From: Myxococcota bacterium
Lineage (GTDB): Bacteria > Myxococcota_A > UBA796 > GCA-2862545
Length of the DNA: 29,777 nt
Reading direction: 5' to 3'
NCBI GenBank assembly: GCA_040079715.1
Contig: JBEBJW010000001.1
Coordinates: 1-29,777 of the forward strand
The notes under the pieces were generated by a model. That model worked only from the letters and a program-made list of their open reading frames with translations, searched no databases and had not been told where the DNA came from. The number at the start of each line of letters is the position of its first letter. Within the stretch, counting starts at the first letter, position 1. Position numbers and translations under genes: made by a program. This document shows, one piece after another, positions 12 to 7,690 of this stretch.

Positions 12-473
12 TCAGCGTCGGCGGCGCTTCGCCGGTCCGGGCGGGGAGCCGCCGGTGGCGCCGGACGCCCGGACCACCGCGTCGCGGGCGGAGCTCATCG
101 CCGAGGTGATCTGCTCGTCGCCGCCGTCGAGGACCCGCAAGTGCAGGCCGCTGATCGCGGTGAGGACCTCGACCAGCGCGGGCTCGGTCGTCGCGGCGTC
201 GAGCGCCCGCCCGAGCGCCTCGGCGGCGGCGGGATCCGCAGCGGCGATGTCTGCGAGCAGGTTCCGGGCCGCCACCCGGCGGCGGTCGACCGGCGGCTCG
301 GGCGGGGCGCGCGCGACCACCATCGACGGCGCGGGATCGCCGTCCCCGGCGGGCGTCCGCGCCCGAGCCGACGCGCGGGACCGAGTCCATCGGCGGATCC
401 CCGCGATCCCCGCCGCGGCGATCACGACCGCAGCGCCGCCCGCGACCGCCACCAGCGCGAGTGTGCCCGTCAC
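12..473 (-). CDS. Hypothetical protein with a single N-terminal transmembrane anchor (153 aa)
   Basis: GTG start after a G-rich RBS-like stretch; hydrophobic N-terminus (LALVAVAGGAAVVIAAAGIAGI) followed by RRW; divergent from the spike gene. No family recognised. Confidence 0.55.
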   Translation of the reverse strand: MTGTLALVAVAGGAAVVIAAAGIAGIRRWTRSRASARARTPAGDGDPAPSMVVARAPPEPPVDRRRVAARNLLADIAAADPAAAEALGRALDAATTEPALVEVLTAISGLHLRVLDGGDEQITSAMSSARDAVVRASGATGGSPPGPAKRRRR

Positions 474-584: not shown

Positions 585-1469
585 ATGGCCAAGGTGACCG
601 ACGCGGGCGGGCGGCCGCACTCCGGCATCGTCCAGCAGCCCGTCATCGGCGTGGTGACCGACAACCGCGACCCACTGGGCTGGGGTCGGGTCAAGGTCAA
701 GTTCCCGACCCTCCACGGGGAGCCGCCGTCGGACTGGATCCCGCAGGTCGCCCCGAACGCCGGCAAGGAGCGCGGGTTCTACGCGCTGCCCGAGATCGAC
801 GACGAGGTGCTGGTCGTGTTCCTCCAGGGCAGCCAGGAGGCGGCGGTGGTCCTCGGCCAGCTGTGGAACGGCGAGGACATCGCGCCGAAGGAGGCGAAGG
901 ACGCCCACCCCGCACCGGGGAAGACCGACACCGGGGCCACCTGGTCGACCGACCAATTCACCGCCGGCAGCCCGAACTTCGAGAAGAACGACCGGCGGTT
1001 CTGGAAGTCGCGGTCCGGCCACCTGATCGTGTTCGACGACACCGAGGCGGCCGAGTCGATCCAGATCTGGGACAAGGATCACACGCTTTCGCTGGTGTTC
1101 GAGACGAAGGAGCAGCGGATCATCCTCGCGAACACCCAGGGCGATCTCCACATCCGGACCAAGAAGGACCTGTACCTCGAGGCCGGCCAGGACATCAAGT
1201 GGCGCGCGGGCCGCGACATCGTGGGCGAGTCCGCCCGCGACACGACCCACGAGGCCAAGCGGAACTGGTCCAGCAAGTCGACCCAGGAGTCGAAGCTCGA
1301 GGCGGGCACGAACTTCACGATCGACGCCGGCCAGAACCTCACCTGCAAGGCGTCGATGTCCACGAGCGTCGAGGGCAGCGTGAGCTACTCGGCGAAGGGC
1401 GGGTCGACCGCGAAGCTCGAGGGCGGCGCGATGACCGAGGTGAAGGGCGGGATCGTCAAGATCAACTGA
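585..1469 (+). CDS. Phage baseplate assembly protein V / Gp5-type (VgrG C-terminal) spike protein, eCIS-like, 294 aa
   Basis: Gp5 OB-fold signature (GVVTDNRDPLGWGRVKVKFP...W...GFYALPEIDDEVLVVF), KSRSGHLIVFDD motif, beta-helix repeats, C-terminal GGIVKIN. Start reassigned to ATG 585 on RBS and promoter evidence. Confidence 0.85.
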   Translation: MAKVTDAGGRPHSGIVQQPVIGVVTDNRDPLGWGRVKVKFPTLHGEPPSDWIPQVAPNAGKERGFYALPEIDDEVLVVFLQGSQEAAVVLGQLWNGEDIAPKEAKDAHPAPGKTDTGATWSTDQFTAGSPNFEKNDRRFWKSRSGHLIVFDDTEAAESIQIWDKDHTLSLVFETKEQRIILANTQGDLHIRTKKDLYLEAGQDIKWRAGRDIVGESARDTTHEAKRNWSSKSTQESKLEAGTNFTIDAGQNLTCKASMSTSVEGSVSYSAKGGSTAKLEGGAMTEVKGGIVKIN

Positions 1470-1543
1470 TCGCCGACCTCCTGCTCGCCGCGCTCGACAC
1501 AGCCGATCGTCCGGAGCGTTACGACGCGTCGGGAGGCAGCGCG

Positions 1544-2293
1544 ATGGGCCGTCCGAGCGATCCGGTGCTGAAGTGGCTCCGGGCCCTGGTCGACAGCAGG
1601 GGGCTGAACACGGCGTCGGTGGCCCAGAAGTCGGGGCTGCCGCGGGCGCGGATCCGGAAGATCCTCACCGGCGCCGAGCCGATGCTGGTCGACGAGCTGA
1701 TGGTGCTGTCGACCGCGCTGTCGATCTCGCCGAAGGACATGGGCCTGCCGGACGGGACGCCCACCGAGCTCCCGACCGACGAGCCGGCGATCGATCCGGC
1801 GCTGGCCGAGCTCGTCGGGGCGCCGAACCCGGTGGTCGACCCGTGGGGCAACCACATCGAGCAGTTGTTTCGGGTCGCGTTCGGCCTCGGATGCGACTTC
1901 TTCTTCTTCTCGGACCCAGCCGAGCTCGCGGACAGCGGGATCCCGCCGAAGGTGCTGGCGCAGTTCCGCGACGATCTCGTCCCGCTGCAGATGAAGGCCG
2001 AGTTCCACGCGTACAACAACCCGCGGTACGACGACGACGGGATCACCCTGACGATGTCGTTCGACGCCCTGTACGAATGCCGGTTCCCGTGGACCAGCGT
2101 CCGCCGGTTCATCTTCCTTCCCACACAGATCACCGCCGCCGCCGACCAGCCGGCCGGGCCCCGGGTGGTCGAGGCGCCCGCGCCCGAGGCGTCTCGATCG
2201 TCGGACGCCGGTGACGCGGTCGAACCGGAGGCGACGCCGCCCGCGGCAGACGCTCCGCGGAAGGGCAAGCCCCACCTGCGCCTGGTGGACTGA
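1544..2293 (+). CDS. XRE/Cro-type HTH fused to an SspB-like (ClpXP specificity factor) domain with acidic linker and C-terminal XB-like motif, 249 aa
   Basis: GGGAGG RBS then ATG 1544. N-terminal HTH (LRALVDSRGLNTASVAQKSGLPRARIRKILTG...ELMVLSTAL); middle resembles SspB (GIPPKV...LVPLQM...YDDDGITLTMSFD...CRFPWTSV); ends RKGKPHLRLVD. Confidence 0.7.
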   Translation: MGRPSDPVLKWLRALVDSRGLNTASVAQKSGLPRARIRKILTGAEPMLVDELMVLSTALSISPKDMGLPDGTPTELPTDEPAIDPALAELVGAPNPVVDPWGNHIEQLFRVAFGLGCDFFFFSDPAELADSGIPPKVLAQFRDDLVPLQMKAEFHAYNNPRYDDDGITLTMSFDALYECRFPWTSVRRFIFLPTQITAAADQPAGPRVVEAPAPEASRSSDAGDAVEPEATPPAADAPRKGKPHLRLVD

Positions 2294-2318: not shown

Positions 2319-2347
2319 CGTACGTGTGCCTCCGATGATACGTACGT
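2319..2347. promoter_or_regulatory. Candidate toxin-antitoxin operator pair
   Basis: CGTACGT at 2319-2325 and 2341-2347 (22 bp apart); second copy lies in the perfect palindrome ACGTACGT, just upstream of the antitoxin RBS GAGGAGG. Confidence 0.4.
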
Positions 2348-2361
2348 CCGAGGAGGGGCCG

Positions 2362-2580
2362 ATGAAGGCATCCGAGCTGCGTGCCGACATCTACCGGGTG
2401 TTGGACCGGGTCCTCGAGACGGGGATCCCGGTCGAGATCGAGCGGAATGGGCGGGTTCTCCGCATCGTCGCCGAGCCGCTCGGTTCGAGGCTCGATCGGC
2501 TGGTTCCCCACCCGGACGCGGTGGTCGGTGACCTGGACGAGCTGGTCCACCTCGACTGGTCGTCGGAGTGGCGCCCGTGA
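2362..2580 (+). CDS. Type II antitoxin, Phd/YefM-like (72 aa)
   Basis: MKASELRADIYRVLDRVLETGIPVEIERNGRVLRIV matches the Phd-type N-terminus; strong RBS; stop overlaps the toxin start (GTGA). Confidence 0.8.
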   Translation: MKASELRADIYRVLDRVLETGIPVEIERNGRVLRIVAEPLGSRLDRLVPHPDAVVGDLDELVHLDWSSEWRP

Positions 2581-2951
2581 TCCACCTCGACACCCACGTG
2601 GTGGTGTGGTGCTACGCCGGTGATCGCGCCCGGCTGGAGCCGGTCCGCCACGTGCTCGACGGTGCGACGCTCGGGGCCTCGCCGATGGTCCGGTTGGAGC
2701 TGCAGTACCTGTACGAGATCGGCCGGCTGCGCGTCCCGGCTTCGACCGTGGTCGCGGAGCTCGCCGACACGCTCGGTCTCGTGTCCACCGACGCTTCGTT
2801 CGGAGCGGTCACAAGCGTGGCGGCGCGGATGGCGTGGACCCGGGATCCGTTCGACCGGCTGATCGTCGCGAACGCCGTCGTGGACGGCGTGCCGCTGCTG
2901 ACGCGAGACGAGACGGTGCGGGCCCACTTCCCTGGCGCGAGGTGGGACTGA
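2577..2951 (+). CDS. vapC: PIN-domain (VapC family) toxin, 124 aa
   Basis: IHLDTHVVVW N-terminal PIN motif, SPMVRLEL, TRDPFDRLIVA, LLTRD; GTG 2577 overlaps the antitoxin stop. Confidence 0.88.
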   Translation: MIHLDTHVVVWCYAGDRARLEPVRHVLDGATLGASPMVRLELQYLYEIGRLRVPASTVVAELADTLGLVSTDASFGAVTSVAARMAWTRDPFDRLIVANAVVDGVPLLTRDETVRAHFPGARWD

Positions 2952-3093: not shown

Positions 3094-3258
3094 TCAGGTC
3101 AGGTGGTTCGCGACCGAGTTCCACATGTTGACCGCGTTCGTCGCGAACAACGTGACGGCGCCCAGAATCGCGAGGAAGATCAGCGACGCGATCAAGGCGT
3201 ACTCGATCGCGGTCGCGCCCCGCTCGTCAATCCAAAAACGACCAAGGTGGTGGGTCAT
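3094..3258 (-). CDS. flp: Flp/Fap (type IVb, Tad) pilin, 54 aa
   Basis: Hand translation MTHHLGRFWIDERGATAIEYALIASLIFLAILGAVTLFATNAVNMWNSVANHLT; prepilin G|ATAIEY motif plus hydrophobic helix; AGGA RBS. Absent from the ORF track. Confidence 0.92.
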   Translation of the reverse strand: MTHHLGRFWIDERGATAIEYALIASLIFLAILGAVTLFATNAVNMWNSVANHLT

Positions 3259-3282
3259 GGGGATCCTGTTCGGTGTAGCAGT

Positions 3283-3450
3283 CTAACTCAGATGGGTGGC
3301 GATCGAGTTCCACATCGTGGTGACTCGGCTCGCCATCAGCGTGACCGCGCTGAAGATGATCAGGAAGATCAACGAGATGATCAACCCGTACTCGATCGCG
3401 GTTCCGCCGCGTTCGTCGGCGACGAACTCAGCCAGGGGGGAGTGGGACAT
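3283..3450 (-). CDS. flp: Flp/Fap (type IVb, Tad) pilin, 55 aa
   Basis: Hand translation MSHSPLAEFVADERGGTAIEYGLIISLIFLIIFSAVTLMASRVTTMWNSIATHLS; G|GTAIEY motif. Absent from the ORF track. Confidence 0.92.
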   Translation of the reverse strand: MSHSPLAEFVADERGGTAIEYGLIISLIFLIIFSAVTLMASRVTTMWNSIATHLS

Positions 3451-3518: not shown

Positions 3519-4148
3519 TTACGGAAGGTCGTCTTCGGCCGGAGACGCCTGTGGTGGCGCGGTTACAGCCCGGTATGCGAGCCACCCGAGCCCGATCACG
3601 ACCGCGATCGCCGCGATTCCGGTGGCCCGGTGGAGCAGGCCGGCGGCGACTTCGGCGATCGGGGTCCCGAACCAGTACCCGAGCGCGACCGTCACCGGGA
3701 TCGCGATCATCAGCCCGATCCCGTCGAACAACGCGAACCCGCGCAGCGGGACCCCCATCGCGCCCGCCGCGACGAACACCGGCGCGCGGAACCCGACCAT
3801 GAACCGGCCGATCAGCACCGCCGCGGTGCCGTGACGGCCGACCAGCCGCTGGGCCCGCGCGAGCTTCTTCGACCCGACGAGCCACTTCATCCGGCCGGAC
3901 TCGAGCAGCCGGGCGACGAGGAACCGCCCGATCGCCCACGACGACAGGTCACGGATCCCGACCCCGAGCCACGCGACGAGCAGGGTGACCGGCCAGCTCC
4001 AGTCGCCGGCGGCGATCCGGTTGCCGGCGATCATCAGCGGCACGTCTTCGGGCAAGGGGACGAAGATCCCGGACCCGGCGCACACCACCCACAGCCCCGG
4101 GTACCCGGTGCTCTGGGTCAGCGCGCTCTGGATCAGCAGGTGCACCAT
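3519..4148 (-). CDS. DedA/SNARE-associated family membrane protein, 209 aa
   Basis: PLPEDVPLMIAG, G...D...W.IGR and LIGRFMVGFRAPVFVAAGAMGV motifs; several transmembrane segments. Confidence 0.88.
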   Translation of the reverse strand: MVHLLIQSALTQSTGYPGLWVVCAGSGIFVPLPEDVPLMIAGNRIAAGDWSWPVTLLVAWLGVGIRDLSSWAIGRFLVARLLESGRMKWLVGSKKLARAQRLVGRHGTAAVLIGRFMVGFRAPVFVAAGAMGVPLRGFALFDGIGLMIAIPVTVALGYWFGTPIAEVAAGLLHRATGIAAIAVVIGLGWLAYRAVTAPPQASPAEDDLP

Positions 4149-4690: not shown

Positions 4691-4811
4691 CGGCCGCTGG
4701 TCCGAGCGGGCCCCGGTGGAACGTCCGATCCGTCCGTCCGGTCCAGCGCCTCCTCACCCGTCCACCAGCAGTCCTCCACGGCACGGGGTGCCCCCCCGCA
4801 GCGGAGCGCAC

Positions 4812-6194
4812 ATGAATCTTCGCTCGACCGCTCGGGGCTGGAATCGCGGAGCTGGTTCTCACGGTTTCTTGACCGCGATCGCGGCCTGGCTCCTGCTGTC
4901 CGGGGCGCCGGCCGCAGCGGGGGAGTTCCCGTACCCGGTCGCGCAGCAGACCCTCGACAACGGGCTCCGGCTGTACGTCGTGTCGATGCCGTCCACCGGT
5001 GTGGTCGCGTACGGCACTTGGATGTCGGTCGGGTCCCGCGACGAGGTCGACCTCGGGCGCACCGGGTTCGCCCACTTCTTCGAGCACCTGATGTTCCACG
5101 GCACGCCGACCGTGCCGGCGGCCGCCCGCGACCGGGAGATCCTCCGCCTCGGCGCGGACGACAACGCCTGGACCTGGCTCGACGAGACCGTGTACCACGC
5201 GATGCTGCCGTCGGCGTCGCTGCCGCGGTTCGTCGAGCTCGAGTCCGACCGGTTCGCGCACCTCGCGCTGACCCCGGAGGGCGTGAAGCGCGAGGCCGGC
5301 GCGGTGTACGGCGAGTACCGCAAGAACAGCGCCGATCCCGGCTCGGTCCTGTCGGTGGCGCTCGGGAAGGCCGCGTTCGGCGCCCACACGTACGGGCACG
5401 ACACGATCGGCCTCGAAGCAGACATCGCGGCGATGCCCACCGGTCACGAGGCTGCGCTCGCGTTCTTCGATCGGTTCTACCGGCCGGATCACGCCGCGGT
5501 GCTGGTGGTCGGCGACGTCGATCCCGCGTCGACGTTCGCGCTGCTGACCGCGGCGTACGGCGGGTGGGCGCGGTCGTCGGCGCCGCCGCCTCCGGTGCCG
5601 GTCGAGCCGCCGCAGACCGCGATCCGACGGGTGAACGTCGACTGGCCGACGCCCGCCACCGCCCAGATCGCGTTCGGGTGGAAGATCCCGGCGTTCCACG
5701 CGACCGATCCGACGGCGGCTCGCCTGGCGCTGGCCGGAGACCTGCTGCTCGCGTCGACCGGCCCGCTCGAGCGGCGGCTGGTCCGCGAGGAGGGGCTCGC
5801 GTACGCGGTGTACGGCGGCCCGGACGAGACGGTCGACCCCGGGCTGTTCCGGATCACGGTCGAGGCGCGCTCCACCGCCGACCTGCCGCGGATCGAGGCG
5901 GTGATCCGCGAGGAGCTCGCCCGGCTCGGTCAGGCGGTGGACCCGGCGGTGCTCGACGCGACCCGCGCCCACCGGCGGTACGCGTTCCTGGCCTCGCTCG
6001 ACGACCCGCTGACCGTGCTGCACGTCCTCGGCGATTCGCTCCGCCGCGATCCGGATCCGGCCGCGCTCGACGCGTACCGGGCGGCGATCGCCTCCGCGGC
6101 TGCCGACGAGGTGGCCGCGGCGATCCGCGACACGTTCGTCGACGCCCGGCTGACCGTCGCCACCCTCACCCCGCCGCCGGAGCAGACCCCGTGA
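4812..6194 (+). CDS. M16B zinc peptidase, catalytic subunit (secreted)
   Basis: Inverted zinc motif HFFEH in GRTGFAHFFEHLMFHGT, NAWT, FFDRFYRPDHA, R-x-GLAY. Start uncertain (ATG 4812 or TTG 4869). Confidence 0.9.
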   Translation: MNLRSTARGWNRGAGSHGFLTAIAAWLLLSGAPAAAGEFPYPVAQQTLDNGLRLYVVSMPSTGVVAYGTWMSVGSRDEVDLGRTGFAHFFEHLMFHGTPTVPAAARDREILRLGADDNAWTWLDETVYHAMLPSASLPRFVELESDRFAHLALTPEGVKREAGAVYGEYRKNSADPGSVLSVALGKAAFGAHTYGHDTIGLEADIAAMPTGHEAALAFFDRFYRPDHAAVLVVGDVDPASTFALLTAAYGGWARSSAPPPPVPVEPPQTAIRRVNVDWPTPATAQIAFGWKIPAFHATDPTAARLALAGDLLLASTGPLERRLVREEGLAYAVYGGPDETVDPGLFRITVEARSTADLPRIEAVIREELARLGQAVDPAVLDATRAHRRYAFLASLDDPLTVLHVLGDSLRRDPDPAALDAYRAAIASAAADEVAAAIRDTFVDARLTVATLTPPPEQTP

Positions 6195-7690
6195 TCCTCG
6201 CCGTCCTCGCCGCCGGGTGCGCCCCGAAGATCGACCCGGGCCCGGTCGCCGCCGAGGTCGCCGCCGCCCCGGTCCGGCTGGTCGCGAGGCCCGTCGCCGC
6301 CGCCCCGGACGTGTACTTCGCCGCGATCGTCGCGGCTGGCTCGGCGTACGATCCCGTGGGGAGCGAGGGGATCGCCGCGCTGACCCTCCGGGCCACGGTC
6401 GACGCCGGGGCGGGTGACCGCTCGGCGGCCGAGGTCCGCGACGCGCTGTACCCGCTCGGCGCCGCGTTCGACGTGGTGGTCGACCGCGAGTGGGCCTCGA
6501 TCCGGCTCCGGTGCCACCGGGACCACGTCGCCGCCTGCACCGCGCTGTTCGTCGACGCGCTGGTCCACCCCCGGTTCGACGACGCCGACGTGGCCAGGCT
6601 CCGCGACCGGTCGCTCGAGGCGGTGACCGACGGGATGCTCGCGGACGAGGAGACGCTCGGGCGCGAGGTCCTCGACGCCGCGCTGTACGAGGGCCACCCC
6701 TACGGGCACCCGCCCGACGGCCGGTCCGGGGTGCTGCCGCTGCTCGACGCCGCCGCCGCCCGCGCGTTCCACCACCGCCACTACGTCCGCGCGTCGATGG
6801 TGGTCGGGATCGCCGGCGGGTTCGACGACTCCGCGCAGGCCGCGCTCGCCGAGGCGCTCGACGCCGTCCCCGGGCTCCGCCCGCCCGAGCTGCCGCTGAT
6901 GCAGCCGGCGCCGGTCCTCGGCCGGTCGTTGGTCGCGGTCGACACCGACACCCCCGTGACCGGGTACTGGTTCGGCCAGCCGATCGCGCTCGATCGCACC
7001 GATCCGGACTGGGCCGCGATCCAGGTCGCGATCACCGCCCTCGGCGCGCACCGCCAGTCGTTCGGCCGGCTGTTCGAGGCCCTCCGCGGCGATCGCGGCC
7101 TGAACTACGGCGACTACGCGTACGTCGAGCCGTACATCGAGCGCGGCTCGGCGATGCCCGACCAGGGCGTGCTCCGGCGCCAGAACCGGTTCGCGGTGTG
7201 GGTCCGCCCGACGTCGCTCGACAACGGGCCGTTCGCGCTGAAGCTCGCGGTCGACGAGGTCGAGCGGTGGGTCGCCGACGGGCTGACCGCGGACGAGTTC
7301 GACGACGTCCGGTCGTACCTCCGGTCCGGGCTGCCGGTGCTCGCCGCGGATCCCGGTCGACGGCTGGTGTACGCGCTCGACGCCGTCGCGACCGGGACCC
7401 CGGACCCGTTCGACACGCTGCCCGCGGCCCTCGACGCGTTGACCGTCGAGCAGGTCAACGCCGCGATCCGCGCCCACGTCGACCCGAAGAACCTGGCCGT
7501 GGTCGCGGTGTCCGGCGAGGCTGCAGCGCTCGTGACCGCGTTGACCGAACAAACCGCGACGCCGATCGTCTACGCTGACGGTGCGGCCGATCCGTCCCGG
7601 GCCGAGCGCGACGCGCGGGTCGCGGGCGCCACGCTCGGGATCGAGGCGGATCGGGTGACGGTGATCGACGCCGAGGGAGTGTTCCGATGA
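6191..7690 (+). CDS. M16B peptidase, non-catalytic partner subunit, probable lipoprotein (499 aa)
   Basis: GTG overlaps the upstream stop; LAAGC lipobox; M16 fold motifs (HPYGHP, LRGDRGLNYG) but no HXXEH. Confidence 0.85.
   Translation: MILAVLAAGCAPKIDPGPVAAEVAAAPVRLVARPVAAAPDVYFAAIVAAGSAYDPVGSEGIAALTLRATVDAGAGDRSAAEVRDALYPLGAAFDVVVDREWASIRLRCHRDHVAACTALFVDALVHPRFDDADVARLRDRSLEAVTDGMLADEETLGREVLDAALYEGHPYGHPPDGRSGVLPLLDAAAARAFHHRHYVRASMVVGIAGGFDDSAQAALAEALDAVPGLRPPELPLMQPAPVLGRSLVAVDTDTPVTGYWFGQPIALDRTDPDWAAIQVAITALGAHRQSFGRLFEALRGDRGLNYGDYAYVEPYIERGSAMPDQGVLRRQNRFAVWVRPTSLDNGPFALKLAVDEVERWVADGLTADEFDDVRSYLRSGLPVLAADPGRRLVYALDAVATGTPDPFDTLPAALDALTVEQVNAAIRAHVDPKNLAVVAVSGEAAALVTALTEQTATPIVYADGAADPSRAERDARVAGATLGIEADRVTVIDAEGVFR

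What the first reader, a model, noticed from the sequence alone, without database searches (positions are those of the whole stretch)
1544..2293. Apparent XRE-HTH::SspB-like adaptor fusion with a ClpX-binding-like tail
Seen: three-part architecture of an N-terminal HTH, a ~90-aa domain (...DSGIPPKVLAQFRDDLVPLQM...YDDDGITLTMSFDALYECRFPWTSV), an acidic Ala/Pro linker and terminal RKGKPHLRLVD. Established: E. coli SspB is a dimeric adaptor that binds ssrA tags and ends in a flexible linker plus the XB motif (RGGRPALRVVK) that docks on the ClpX N-terminal domain. Inference: this is a DNA-binding protein carrying a complete SspB module. It could recruit ClpXP to DNA-bound substrates, or act as a transcription factor regulated by tagged peptides or by ClpX. 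I know of no characterised protein with this architecture.
Basis: partly seen in the sequence, partly recalled or inferred. Interest (0 to 1): 0.82.

Follow-up and report, generated by a model that had tools for sequence, protein, structure and literature searches.

The report
DNA-binding SspB-type ClpX adaptor fusion
This gene fuses a DNA-binding domain to a divergent copy of SspB, the adaptor that hands tagged proteins to the ClpXP protease, and it takes the place of ordinary SspB throughout one uncultured order of Myxococcota, which suggests protein degradation is linked to DNA there.

Summary
ORF 1544-2293 (+) encodes 249 aa.

- **Architecture:** an XRE-type HTH (res 1-66), a low-confidence linker, an SspB-fold domain (res ~100-193), an acidic Ala/Pro linker, and the tail RKGKPHLRLVD.
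- **SspB fold:** SspB structures are the only non-HTH matches (Foldseek top hit 1ou9; VIA Z 8.1-8.9). With the tail removed, a profile comparison to Pfam-positive SspBs of other Myxococcota gives 95% probability, E 3.8e-8; decoys reach at most 1.7%.
- **Tail:** 120 of 129 full-length homologues carry it. 17 of 24 canonical Myxococcota SspBs end the same way (e.g. PHLKLVE, AHLRLVK).
- **Distribution:** single copy in 38 of 41 related genomes. In 301 sampled genomes of the phylum, no genome holds both this family (43) and canonical SspB (114).
- **Possible substrate:** tmRNA tags differ between the two groups, ANNNN[aromatic] versus ANDN.

Best reading: this is the order's SspB-type adaptor, tethered to ClpX, that has gained a DNA-binding domain. 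ClpX binding, tag binding and DNA binding are inferred, not shown; the complex prediction gave no verdict. I found no paper describing this architecture, and the scan has no note of this family on other DNA. It is a new variant of a known kind.

The parts
1544..2293 (+). Whole gene: HTH-SspB-XB fusion protein, 249 aa plus stop
   Evidence: Translation. 57 close homologues and 140 clusters at 50% identity.
1518..1536 (+). Upstream elements: GTTAC (1518-1522), the 10-bp palindrome CGACGCGTCG (1522-1531) and the GGGAGG ribosome-binding site (1531-1536)
   Evidence: Sequence. GTTA[CGT] lies at -23 to -46 in 21 of 33 distinct orthologue upstream regions, against 0.7% of background windows. The palindrome is not conserved and no consensus sigma-70 promoter was found. 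The role of these elements is unresolved.
1544..1741 (+). XRE/Cro-C1-type helix-turn-helix domain (residues 1-66, five helices)
   Evidence: HTH_26 E 2e-4. Family profile against C.AhdI E 1e-3. VIA Z 10.5 to ClgR 3f51 and 10.1 to C.AhdI. R34 is invariant and R38 is at least 90% conserved in the recognition helix.
1742..1840 (+). Variable interdomain linker (residues 67-99)
   Evidence: pLDDT 55-77. Length and sequence vary across the alignment.
1841..2122 (+). Divergent SspB-fold domain (residues ~100-193): an N-terminal helix followed by a beta core
   Evidence: Foldseek and VIA hits to SspB only. hhalign against canonical Myxococcota SspB: 95%, E 3.8e-8, with decoys at most 1.7%. ESM Atlas: 86 of 100 feature hits lie in clusters where a minority of members (12-24% in the rows shown) carry PF04386.
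2123..2257 (+). Disordered acidic Ala/Pro linker (residues 194-238)
   Evidence: pLDDT 50-65. Not conserved in sequence or length.
2258..2290 (+). C-terminal tail RKGKPHLRLVD, resembling the XB (ClpX-binding) motif
   Evidence: L-R-L is invariant and V at least 90% conserved. 120 of 129 full-length homologues carry the tail. The same motif ends 17 of 24 Pfam-positive SspBs of other Myxococcota. It is unique in the assembly.

Best explanation
The gene encodes the SspB-type ClpXP adaptor of this uncultured order of Myxococcota, which has acquired an N-terminal XRE-type DNA-binding domain. Shown by computation: the domain order HTH, linker, SspB fold, disordered linker, C-terminal (P/G)-H-L-R-L-V-x tail; homology of the middle domain to canonical SspB; identity of the tail with the tails of canonical SspBs in the same phylum; and an order-wide, single-copy distribution that never overlaps with canonical SspB. 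Inferred mechanism, by analogy with E. coli SspB (PMC9963277): the SspB-like domain dimerises through its conserved N-terminal helix and binds a peptide signal, most plausibly the N-terminal part of the local ssrA tag (ANNNN-aromatic). The two flexible tails dock on the zinc-binding N-domains of ClpX, so bound cargo is tethered to ClpXP. Because the SspB domain would hold two HTH domains together, the dimer is also built like an XRE repressor and probably binds DNA. It would then act either as a transcription factor whose activity is linked to ClpXP and tag load, or as an adaptor held on the nucleoid.
For: - Fold: SspB is the top Foldseek PDB hit, and eight SspB-family entries (seven named SspB, plus 2nys) are the only non-HTH hits. 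An independent VIA-align search gives Z 8.9, 8.5 and 8.1 to 2nys, 2qaz and 8et3 over residues 99-195.
- Homology with the tail excluded: hhalign 95%, E 3.8e-8 over the shared TLSF...C..PW core. Reversed, shuffled and unrelated decoys reach at most 1.7%.
- The Pfam SspB model itself weakly hits one orthologue, G034 (18.8 bits), inside the family match.
- ESM Atlas features point to clusters in which some members carry the Pfam SspB family (PF04386), and its structure search finds a Myxococcota SspB cluster at TM 0.50.
- Tail: conserved in 120 of 129 homologues. Canonical SspBs of the phylum end ...PQLRLVK, AHLRLVK, PHLKLVE, SHLRVVK.
- Distribution: present in 38 of 41 related genomes, single copy. 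In a 301-genome sample of the phylum, 43 have this family and 114 have PF04386, with no overlap.
- A partner is available: a clpP-clpX operon whose ClpX has the zinc N-domain.
- A candidate substrate is available: tmRNA tags ANNNN(H/F/Y/N)(F/S)... in 5 of 6 genomes of the order (the sixth reads ANNNKHF), against AND(N/S)... in 4 Myxococcota with canonical SspB.
- HTH.
Against: - No direct evidence for ClpX binding; the complex prediction gave no verdict.
- Pfam PF04386 does not reach threshold on this protein and sequence identity to solved SspBs is only 9-15%.
- The last residue is usually T, E or D, whereas canonical tails mostly end in K. This could change affinity.
- The tag difference and the non-overlapping distribution both follow phylogeny and are not independent observations.
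- No conserved palindromic operator was found upstream.
- The relative orientation of the two domains is not predicted with confidence (pTM 0.51).
Confidence: 0.6

Rival explanations
1. It is primarily a transcription factor. The SspB-like domain serves only for dimerisation or ligand sensing, and the tail makes the protein itself a ClpXP-controlled substrate (as ClgR turnover is controlled by Clp proteases), not a carrier of other cargo.
For: The best structural match of the HTH is the clp gene regulator ClgR (Z 10.5). Conserved synteny includes a divergently transcribed 160-aa gene and a translationally coupled 2OG-Fe(II) oxygenase in relatives, which could be targets. A conserved upstream element exists.
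Against: The same tail sits on bona fide SspB-family proteins of the phylum, where it is a tether and not a degron (PMC9963277). The order otherwise lacks any recognisable SspB. The most conserved positions lie in the N-terminal helix and beta core. PMC9963277 states that in SspB only the dimer interface and the tag-binding groove are highly conserved; whether the conserved positions here map onto those surfaces was not tested.
Confidence: 0.22
2. It is an adaptor, but the HTH does not bind DNA. It is instead a second cargo-binding or regulatory protein-interaction domain that widens or gates substrate choice.
For: HTH_26 scores only at its cut-off. No conserved operator palindrome was found. 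P0170 carries an unrelated long N-terminal region in front of the same SspB-like module, which ends ...PHLSLVE, a variant that fails the tail pattern. This suggests the N-terminal part is exchangeable.
Against: The five-helix XRE fold is predicted at pLDDT above 94. The recognition helix keeps invariant R34 and conserved R38. Close structural matches are DNA-bound repressors.
Confidence: 0.12
3. The middle domain is an unrelated small beta-barrel (WYL- or Sm-like sensor domain of an HTH regulator) and the tail resemblance is coincidence.
For: The Atlas structure search also lists WYL and RimP clusters. Z of 8-9 is within the range that common arrangements can reach (note).
Against: The WYL matches have TM of only 0.37-0.38, against 0.47-0.50 for the SspB clusters. 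The profile-profile match to SspB is E 3.8e-8 with clean decoys. The tail is invariant and shared with canonical SspBs.
Confidence: 0.04

Closest known systems
SspB (stringent starvation protein B; ClpXP specificity-enhancing factor, Pfam PF04386; PDB 1OU8, 1OU9, 8ET3), and most closely the canonical SspBs of other Myxococcota
   Same: The same fold for the cargo-binding domain, a disordered linker, and a C-terminal hydrophobic-Arg-hydrophobic-Val tail. The tail is near-identical to those of canonical SspBs in the phylum. Both share the TLSF...C..PW core motif.
   Different: It carries an N-terminal XRE HTH of about 66 aa plus a linker. It falls below the Pfam threshold. The terminal residue is T, E or D rather than K. 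The associated ssrA tag begins ANNNN rather than ANDN or AANDENY.
SspB-alpha of Caulobacter crescentus (PDB 2QAS, 2QAZ) and Agrobacterium AGR_C_3712 (2NYS)
   Same: These are the best VIA structural matches (Z 8.5-8.9). They show that highly divergent SspB orthologues exist.
   Different: No HTH, and a different tail type. Stand-alone relatives of the present family in sister families of the same class end in ...DNVRxFRPR... and not LRLV.
ClgR (clp gene regulator of Actinobacteria; PDB 3F51, 3F52)
   Same: An XRE-type HTH, the best structural match of the N-terminal domain. From my own knowledge, ClgR is a regulator tied to Clp proteases.
   Different: ClgR has no SspB domain and no XB tail. 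The resemblance is in the fold only, and no functional link was tested.
HTH-WYL(-WCX) regulators (PafBC, DriD)
   Same: An HTH followed by a small beta-barrel domain.
   Different: The barrel here matches SspB and not WYL (TM 0.37-0.38 against 0.47-0.50; profile match to SspB). WYL regulators have no ClpX-docking tail.

Membership tests
SspB family (Pfam PF04386) | Pfam model hit above the gathering score (27 bits) | tested here: not met
   No PF04386 hit on P0001 even at E up to 10 and none in the genome. One orthologue (G034) gets 18.8 bits, E 6e-3, inside the family match.
SspB family (Pfam PF04386) | SspB fold of the substrate-binding domain | tested here: met
   Foldseek: the top hit is 1ou9_A, and all non-HTH hits are SspB entries, with TM by target 0.51-0.60. 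VIA-align wide: Z 8.9, 8.5 and 8.1 over residues 99-195. The model's pLDDT exceeds 94 in this domain.
SspB family (Pfam PF04386) | Detectable sequence homology to accepted members | tested here: met
   hhalign of the tail-less middle domain against 24 PF04386-positive Myxococcota SspBs: 95%, E 3.8e-8, 59 columns. Decoys reach at most 1.7%. Atlas features give 86 of 100 hits in clusters where a minority of members (12-24% in the rows shown) carry PF04386.
SspB family (Pfam PF04386) | Disordered linker ending in a ClpX N-domain-binding (XB) peptide | tested here: met
   This holds at the sequence level only. The linker has pLDDT 50-65. The LRLV tail is invariant, present in 120 of 129 homologues, and shared with 17 of 24 canonical SspBs of the phylum.
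SspB family (Pfam PF04386) | Physical binding of the tail to the ClpX N-domain | tested here: inconclusive
   Complex prediction of the ClpX N-domain dimer with the tail gave no verdict. A biochemical test is needed.
SspB family (Pfam PF04386) | Homodimer that binds the N-terminal part of the ssrA tag and enhances ClpXP degradation | not testable with these tools
   Only circumstantial evidence. The N-terminal helix is conserved (Q107, F113, L115 and G116 invariant). tmRNA tags of the order keep an Asn-rich stretch plus an aromatic residue.
XRE / Cro-C1 HTH family (Pfam clan HTH; HTH_26, HTH_3, HTH_31) | Five-helix HTH domain recognised by family models and by structure | tested here: met
   HTH_26 scores 22.0 bits against a cut-off of 22, and most homologues carry PF13443. 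The family profile hits C.AhdI at E 1e-3. VIA Z is 8-10.5 to many XRE repressors.
XRE / Cro-C1 HTH family | Sequence-specific DNA binding, usually to an operator at its own promoter | tested here: inconclusive
   A GTTA[CGT] element is conserved upstream (21 of 33 regions against 0.7% background). No conserved inverted repeat was found. A similar GCTAC lies upstream of clpX, so the element may simply belong to the promoter.

The most novel reading that the evidence does not exclude
The protein is a DNA-bound ClpXP adaptor and sensor that links ribosome-rescue load to gene expression. The SspB domain binds ssrA-tagged (ANNNN-aromatic) chains and the tails bind ClpX. Occupancy by cargo or by ClpX changes DNA binding by the paired HTH domains, or brings ClpXP to chromosomal sites to remove DNA-bound proteins. 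Protein quality control and transcription would then be coupled in one polypeptide across a whole bacterial order.
Probability: 0.2. Interest if true: 0.85.

Novelty: new variant of a known kind. Interest (0 to 1): 0.66.

Why it matters
SspB is the textbook tethering adaptor of AAA+ proteolysis. As far as I know, and as far as three literature searches showed, it has only been described without an accessory DNA-binding domain. Here a whole order of Myxococcota appears to have replaced it with a version welded to a DNA-binding domain. If the tail docks on ClpX and the HTH binds DNA, this would be a natural example of an adaptor that works on or from the chromosome, or of a transcription factor that reads the load of tagged proteins. 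It also gives a clean natural pair for studying adaptor-tag co-evolution: ANNNN-type tags with this domain, ANDN-type tags with canonical SspB. It further shows that Pfam-based surveys miss SspB in this lineage.

Tried and rejected
- **Complex prediction:** Complex prediction of the ClpX N-domain (2 copies, from the clpP-clpX operon) with residues 222-249 gave no verdict (score 0.16, controls not run). This counts neither for nor against binding.
- **Sequence searches of the PDB:** searches with the protein and with the family profile found only HTH proteins, not SspB.
- **NCBIfam:** nothing useful.
- **AFDB clusters:** only generic XRE regulators at low TM, so no named HTH+SspB cluster emerged.
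- **Upstream signals:** no sigma-70 consensus promoter and no inverted repeat. The CGACGCGTCG palindrome at 1522-1531 is not conserved in orthologues.
- **tmRNA:** not assembled in the window's own genome, so tags were read from relatives.
- **Window ORF 12-473 (-):** tested as a possible counterpart of the 160-aa divergent neighbour seen in relatives. It is not homologous (20% identity).
- **WYL/Sm-like reading of the middle domain:** rejected, as set out under rival explanations.
- **Terminator-like hairpin at 1872-1899:** it lies inside the coding region and I treated it as chance.

Full report
**1. Observation**

The + strand ORF from ATG 1544 to the stop at 2291-2293 encodes 249 aa. It is preceded by GGGAGG at 1531-1536. 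Pfam recognises only an N-terminal Cro/C1-type HTH: HTH_26, residues 12-65, 22 bits, exactly at the cut-off. NCBIfam gives nothing useful.

**2. A real, conserved family**

- A word-indexed search found 57 homologues of 175-252 aa (most 204-237) at 42-64% identity. All are metagenomic or from MAGs, and most are annotated at best as "XRE-family transcriptional regulator".
- An exhaustive HMMER search of 1.84 billion representatives found 140 clusters, 98 of them at E below 1e-10.
- In the alignment of 47 members (A1) three parts are conserved: the HTH, a middle block (DPWGNHxEQLFRxxFxLGCDFFF...SGVP...LPIKLDAAYHxYNxPRY..GITLTLSFDxLYxCRFPW), and the very C-terminus (G/x)-P-H-L-R-L-V-(T/E/D). The two linkers vary in length and sequence.
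- L245, R246 and L247 are invariant and V248 is at least 90% conserved.
- Among all 129 retrieved homologues of at least 190 aa, 120 end in hydrophobic-[RK]-hydrophobic-hydrophobic within five residues of the end, and 109 end in strict L[RK]L[VI].
- In the window's whole 8.7-Mb assembly, this is the only one of 12,023 ORFs of at least 100 aa that ends in LRLVx. Only 8 fit even a loose version of the tail.

**3. Fold**

- An AlphaFold2 model built on A1 has mean pLDDT 81. Values exceed 94 for residues 1-66 (five helices) and 100-192 (a helix followed by a beta core), and are 50-77 for both linkers and the tail.
- Foldseek against the PDB ranks SspB 1ou9_A first. Every hit in the top 50 that is not an HTH protein is an SspB entry: 1yfn, 1zsz, 1oul, 1ou8, 2nys, 1twb, 2qas (TM by target 0.51-0.60, about 96-101 columns).
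- VIA-align against 48,161 chains does not depend on Foldseek. It gives Z 8.9 (2nys), 8.5 (C. crescentus SspB 2qaz) and 8.1 (SspB in the ClpXP delivery complex 8et3), each over residues ~99-195. All other top rows are XRE HTH proteins aligned to residues 1-70, led by ClgR 3f51 at Z 10.5.
- Z of 8-9 alone is within the range of common arrangements, so I looked for independent evidence.

**4. Homology to SspB, independent of the tail**

- I collected 24 proteins from other Myxococcota genomes that hit Pfam PF04386.
- A profile-profile comparison used the middle domain of A1 (residues 95-196, tail removed) against the SspB domains (tails removed). It gives probability 95%, E 3.8e-8 over 59 columns, aligning GITLTLSFD-LYxCRFPWxSI with GIsxTLSFxGxxxxCxxPWxAV.
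- Controls were the HTH part against SspB, the middle domain against an unrelated alignment, a reversed SspB alignment, and 20 column-shuffled SspB alignments. All gave at most 1.7%.
- The Pfam SspB model itself gives one sub-threshold hit (18.8 bits) inside the orthologue of genome G034.
- For residues 92-249, the ESM Atlas language-model search puts 86 of 100 nearest clusters among clusters in which a minority of members carry PF04386 (12-24% in the rows shown). Its structure search finds a Myxococcota "ClpXP protease specificity-enhancing factor SspB" cluster at TM 0.50. WYL clusters score only 0.37-0.38.

**5. The tail is the phylum's XB motif**

Seventeen of the 24 canonical Myxococcota SspBs end in the same kind of peptide as this family. 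Examples are ...RGRPQLRLVK...KGAHLRLVK...PGVPHLKLVE...RPSHLRVVK and ...PPYLRVVK. This is the strongest argument that the tail here is a ClpX tether. One difference stands out: the last residue is mostly K in canonical proteins and mostly T, E or D here.

**6. Distribution**

- Record titles place the relatives in uncultured Myxococcota.
- The family is present, nearly always as one copy, in 38 of 41 genomes of the window's genus, family and order. Among high-quality genomes the count is 25 of 27.
- In an even sample of 301 high-quality genomes of the phylum, 43 have it. Forty-one of these (G000 included) are in the window's order and two are weaker stand-alone matches in sister families of the same class.
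- PF04386 is found in 114 of the same 301 genomes, and in none of the window's class. No sampled genome has both.
- The two sister-family proteins are 151-157 aa. They have no HTH, keep the LSFDxLYxCRxP core, and end in ...PDNVR(L/P)FRPR... rather than LRLV. Metagenomic stand-alone forms with LRLV tails also exist.
- The simplest history is a divergent SspB lineage that gained the HTH at the base of the order. This was not tested by a tree.

**7. Partner and possible cargo**

- The assembly holds a clpP-clpX operon whose ClpX starts with the C4 zinc N-domain. It also holds a second full ClpX, and a protein that ends in an orphan ClpX zinc domain.
- tmRNA is not assembled in this MAG.
- Six genomes of the order encode the tags ANNNNHFAARMAA, ANNNNFFAAAAA, ANNNNFFAAKAVA, ANNNKHFALAA, ANNNNYSAAVAA and ANNNNNFAVAAVA.
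- Four Myxococcota with canonical SspB encode ANDNAIALAA, ANDNVALRMAA, ANDSNYGRMALVA and ANDNALALAA.
- So the part of the tag that SspB reads in E. coli differs consistently between the two groups. This fits adaptor-tag co-divergence, but it is confounded by phylogeny (6 against 4 genomes).

**8. Context**

- Relatives share this gene order: ThyX, a small gene, a Phage_base_V spike-like gene, often a divergent 160-aa protein with a hydrophobic N-terminus (probably membrane-anchored, not tested) and no Pfam hit, HTH-SspB, a 2OG-Fe(II) oxygenase that abuts or overlaps its stop, Flp pilin(s), a DedA/VTT protein, and two M16 peptidases.
- The window keeps spike, HTH-SspB, two Flp pilins, DedA and the M16 peptidases. 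It lacks the 160-aa gene at this place. It has a Phd/YefM-PIN pair (2326-2951) where relatives have the oxygenase.
- The Phd/VapC pair is therefore a local insertion and not part of a conserved unit.
- A GTTA[CGT] element lies 23-46 nt upstream of the start in 21 of 33 distinct orthologue regions, against 0.7% of background windows.
- No conserved inverted repeat or sigma-70 consensus was found. A similar GCTAC sits upstream of clpX, so this may simply be a promoter element.

**9. Interpretation**

Shown by computation: the architecture, homology to SspB, the tail shared with canonical SspBs, and the order-wide distribution that does not overlap with canonical SspB.

Inferred: dimerisation through the conserved N-terminal helix, binding of the local ssrA tag or another peptide, docking of the tails on ClpX N-domains, and DNA binding by the paired HTH domains.

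The complex prediction gave no verdict and is not used as evidence. The main rival is that the protein is first of all a transcription factor whose own level is set by ClpXP. The two readings are not exclusive.

**10. Novelty**

Three full-text searches (SspB with helix-turn-helix, with Myxococcus, and with ClpX/LRVVK) found no description of an HTH-SspB fusion. The scan's own notes hold other proteins with XB-like tails, but not this family on other DNA. I rate it a new variant of a known kind: an SspB-family adaptor with a fused DNA-binding domain that stands in for canonical SspB in a whole order.

Noticed in passing
window 585-1469 (+): A stand-alone Phage_base_V (gp5/VgrG OB-fold) spike-like gene (E 1.8e-23) lies directly upstream. 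The same gene is a conserved neighbour of the HTH-SspB gene in relatives from several genera. It therefore looks like a stable chromosomal gene of the order, not a remnant of a mobile tail locus.
   Followed up: partly
window 2326-2951 (+): A Phd/YefM antitoxin (E 4.9e-6) and a PIN/VapC toxin (E 2.5e-8) overlap by 13 nt. Most relatives examined have a 2OG-Fe(II) oxygenase at this position, abutting or overlapping the stop of the HTH-SspB gene. The toxin-antitoxin pair therefore looks like a local insertion or replacement.
   Followed up: partly
L001:5461-5949 (-), L071:4446-4949 (-), L072:4378-4875 (-), L074:4463-4933 (-), L003:5374-5838 (-): A conserved protein of about 160 aa with a hydrophobic N-terminus (probably a membrane anchor; not tested) and no Pfam hit is transcribed divergently from the HTH-SspB gene in relatives. 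It is a candidate target or partner. It is missing at this place in the window.
   Followed up: partly
L044:472-1614 (+) = G000 contig C65: A protein of the same genome ends in an orphan ClpX-type C4 zinc-binding domain (PF06689, E 7.7e-19) with no AAA+ module, next to a sigma-factor-like gene. It could compete for XB tails.
   Followed up: no
L048, L049, L050, L081, L082, L083 against L077-L080: tmRNA tags of the order begin ANNNN (ANNNK in one of the six) followed by an aromatic residue in five of the six. Myxococcota with canonical SspB have AND(N/S) tags.
   Followed up: partly
L075:827-1300 (+), L076:800-1255 (+): Sister families of the same class carry stand-alone SspB-like proteins of 151-157 aa. 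They are closer to this family than to PF04386 and have a different basic tail...PDNVR(L/P)FRPR....
   Followed up: partly
window 1518-1522 and the orthologous upstream regions: A GTTA[CGT] element lies 23-46 nt before the start codon in 21 of 33 distinct orthologue regions (background 0.7%). It may be a promoter element or an operator half-site; this is unresolved.
   Followed up: partly
window 3094-3450 (-), 3519-4148 (-), 4716-7690 (+): Two Flp pilins, a DedA/VTT protein and an M16 peptidase gene (4716-6194; the second of the pair was not checked in the window) keep the same order as in relatives, so this is a syntenic chromosomal block.
   Followed up: partly
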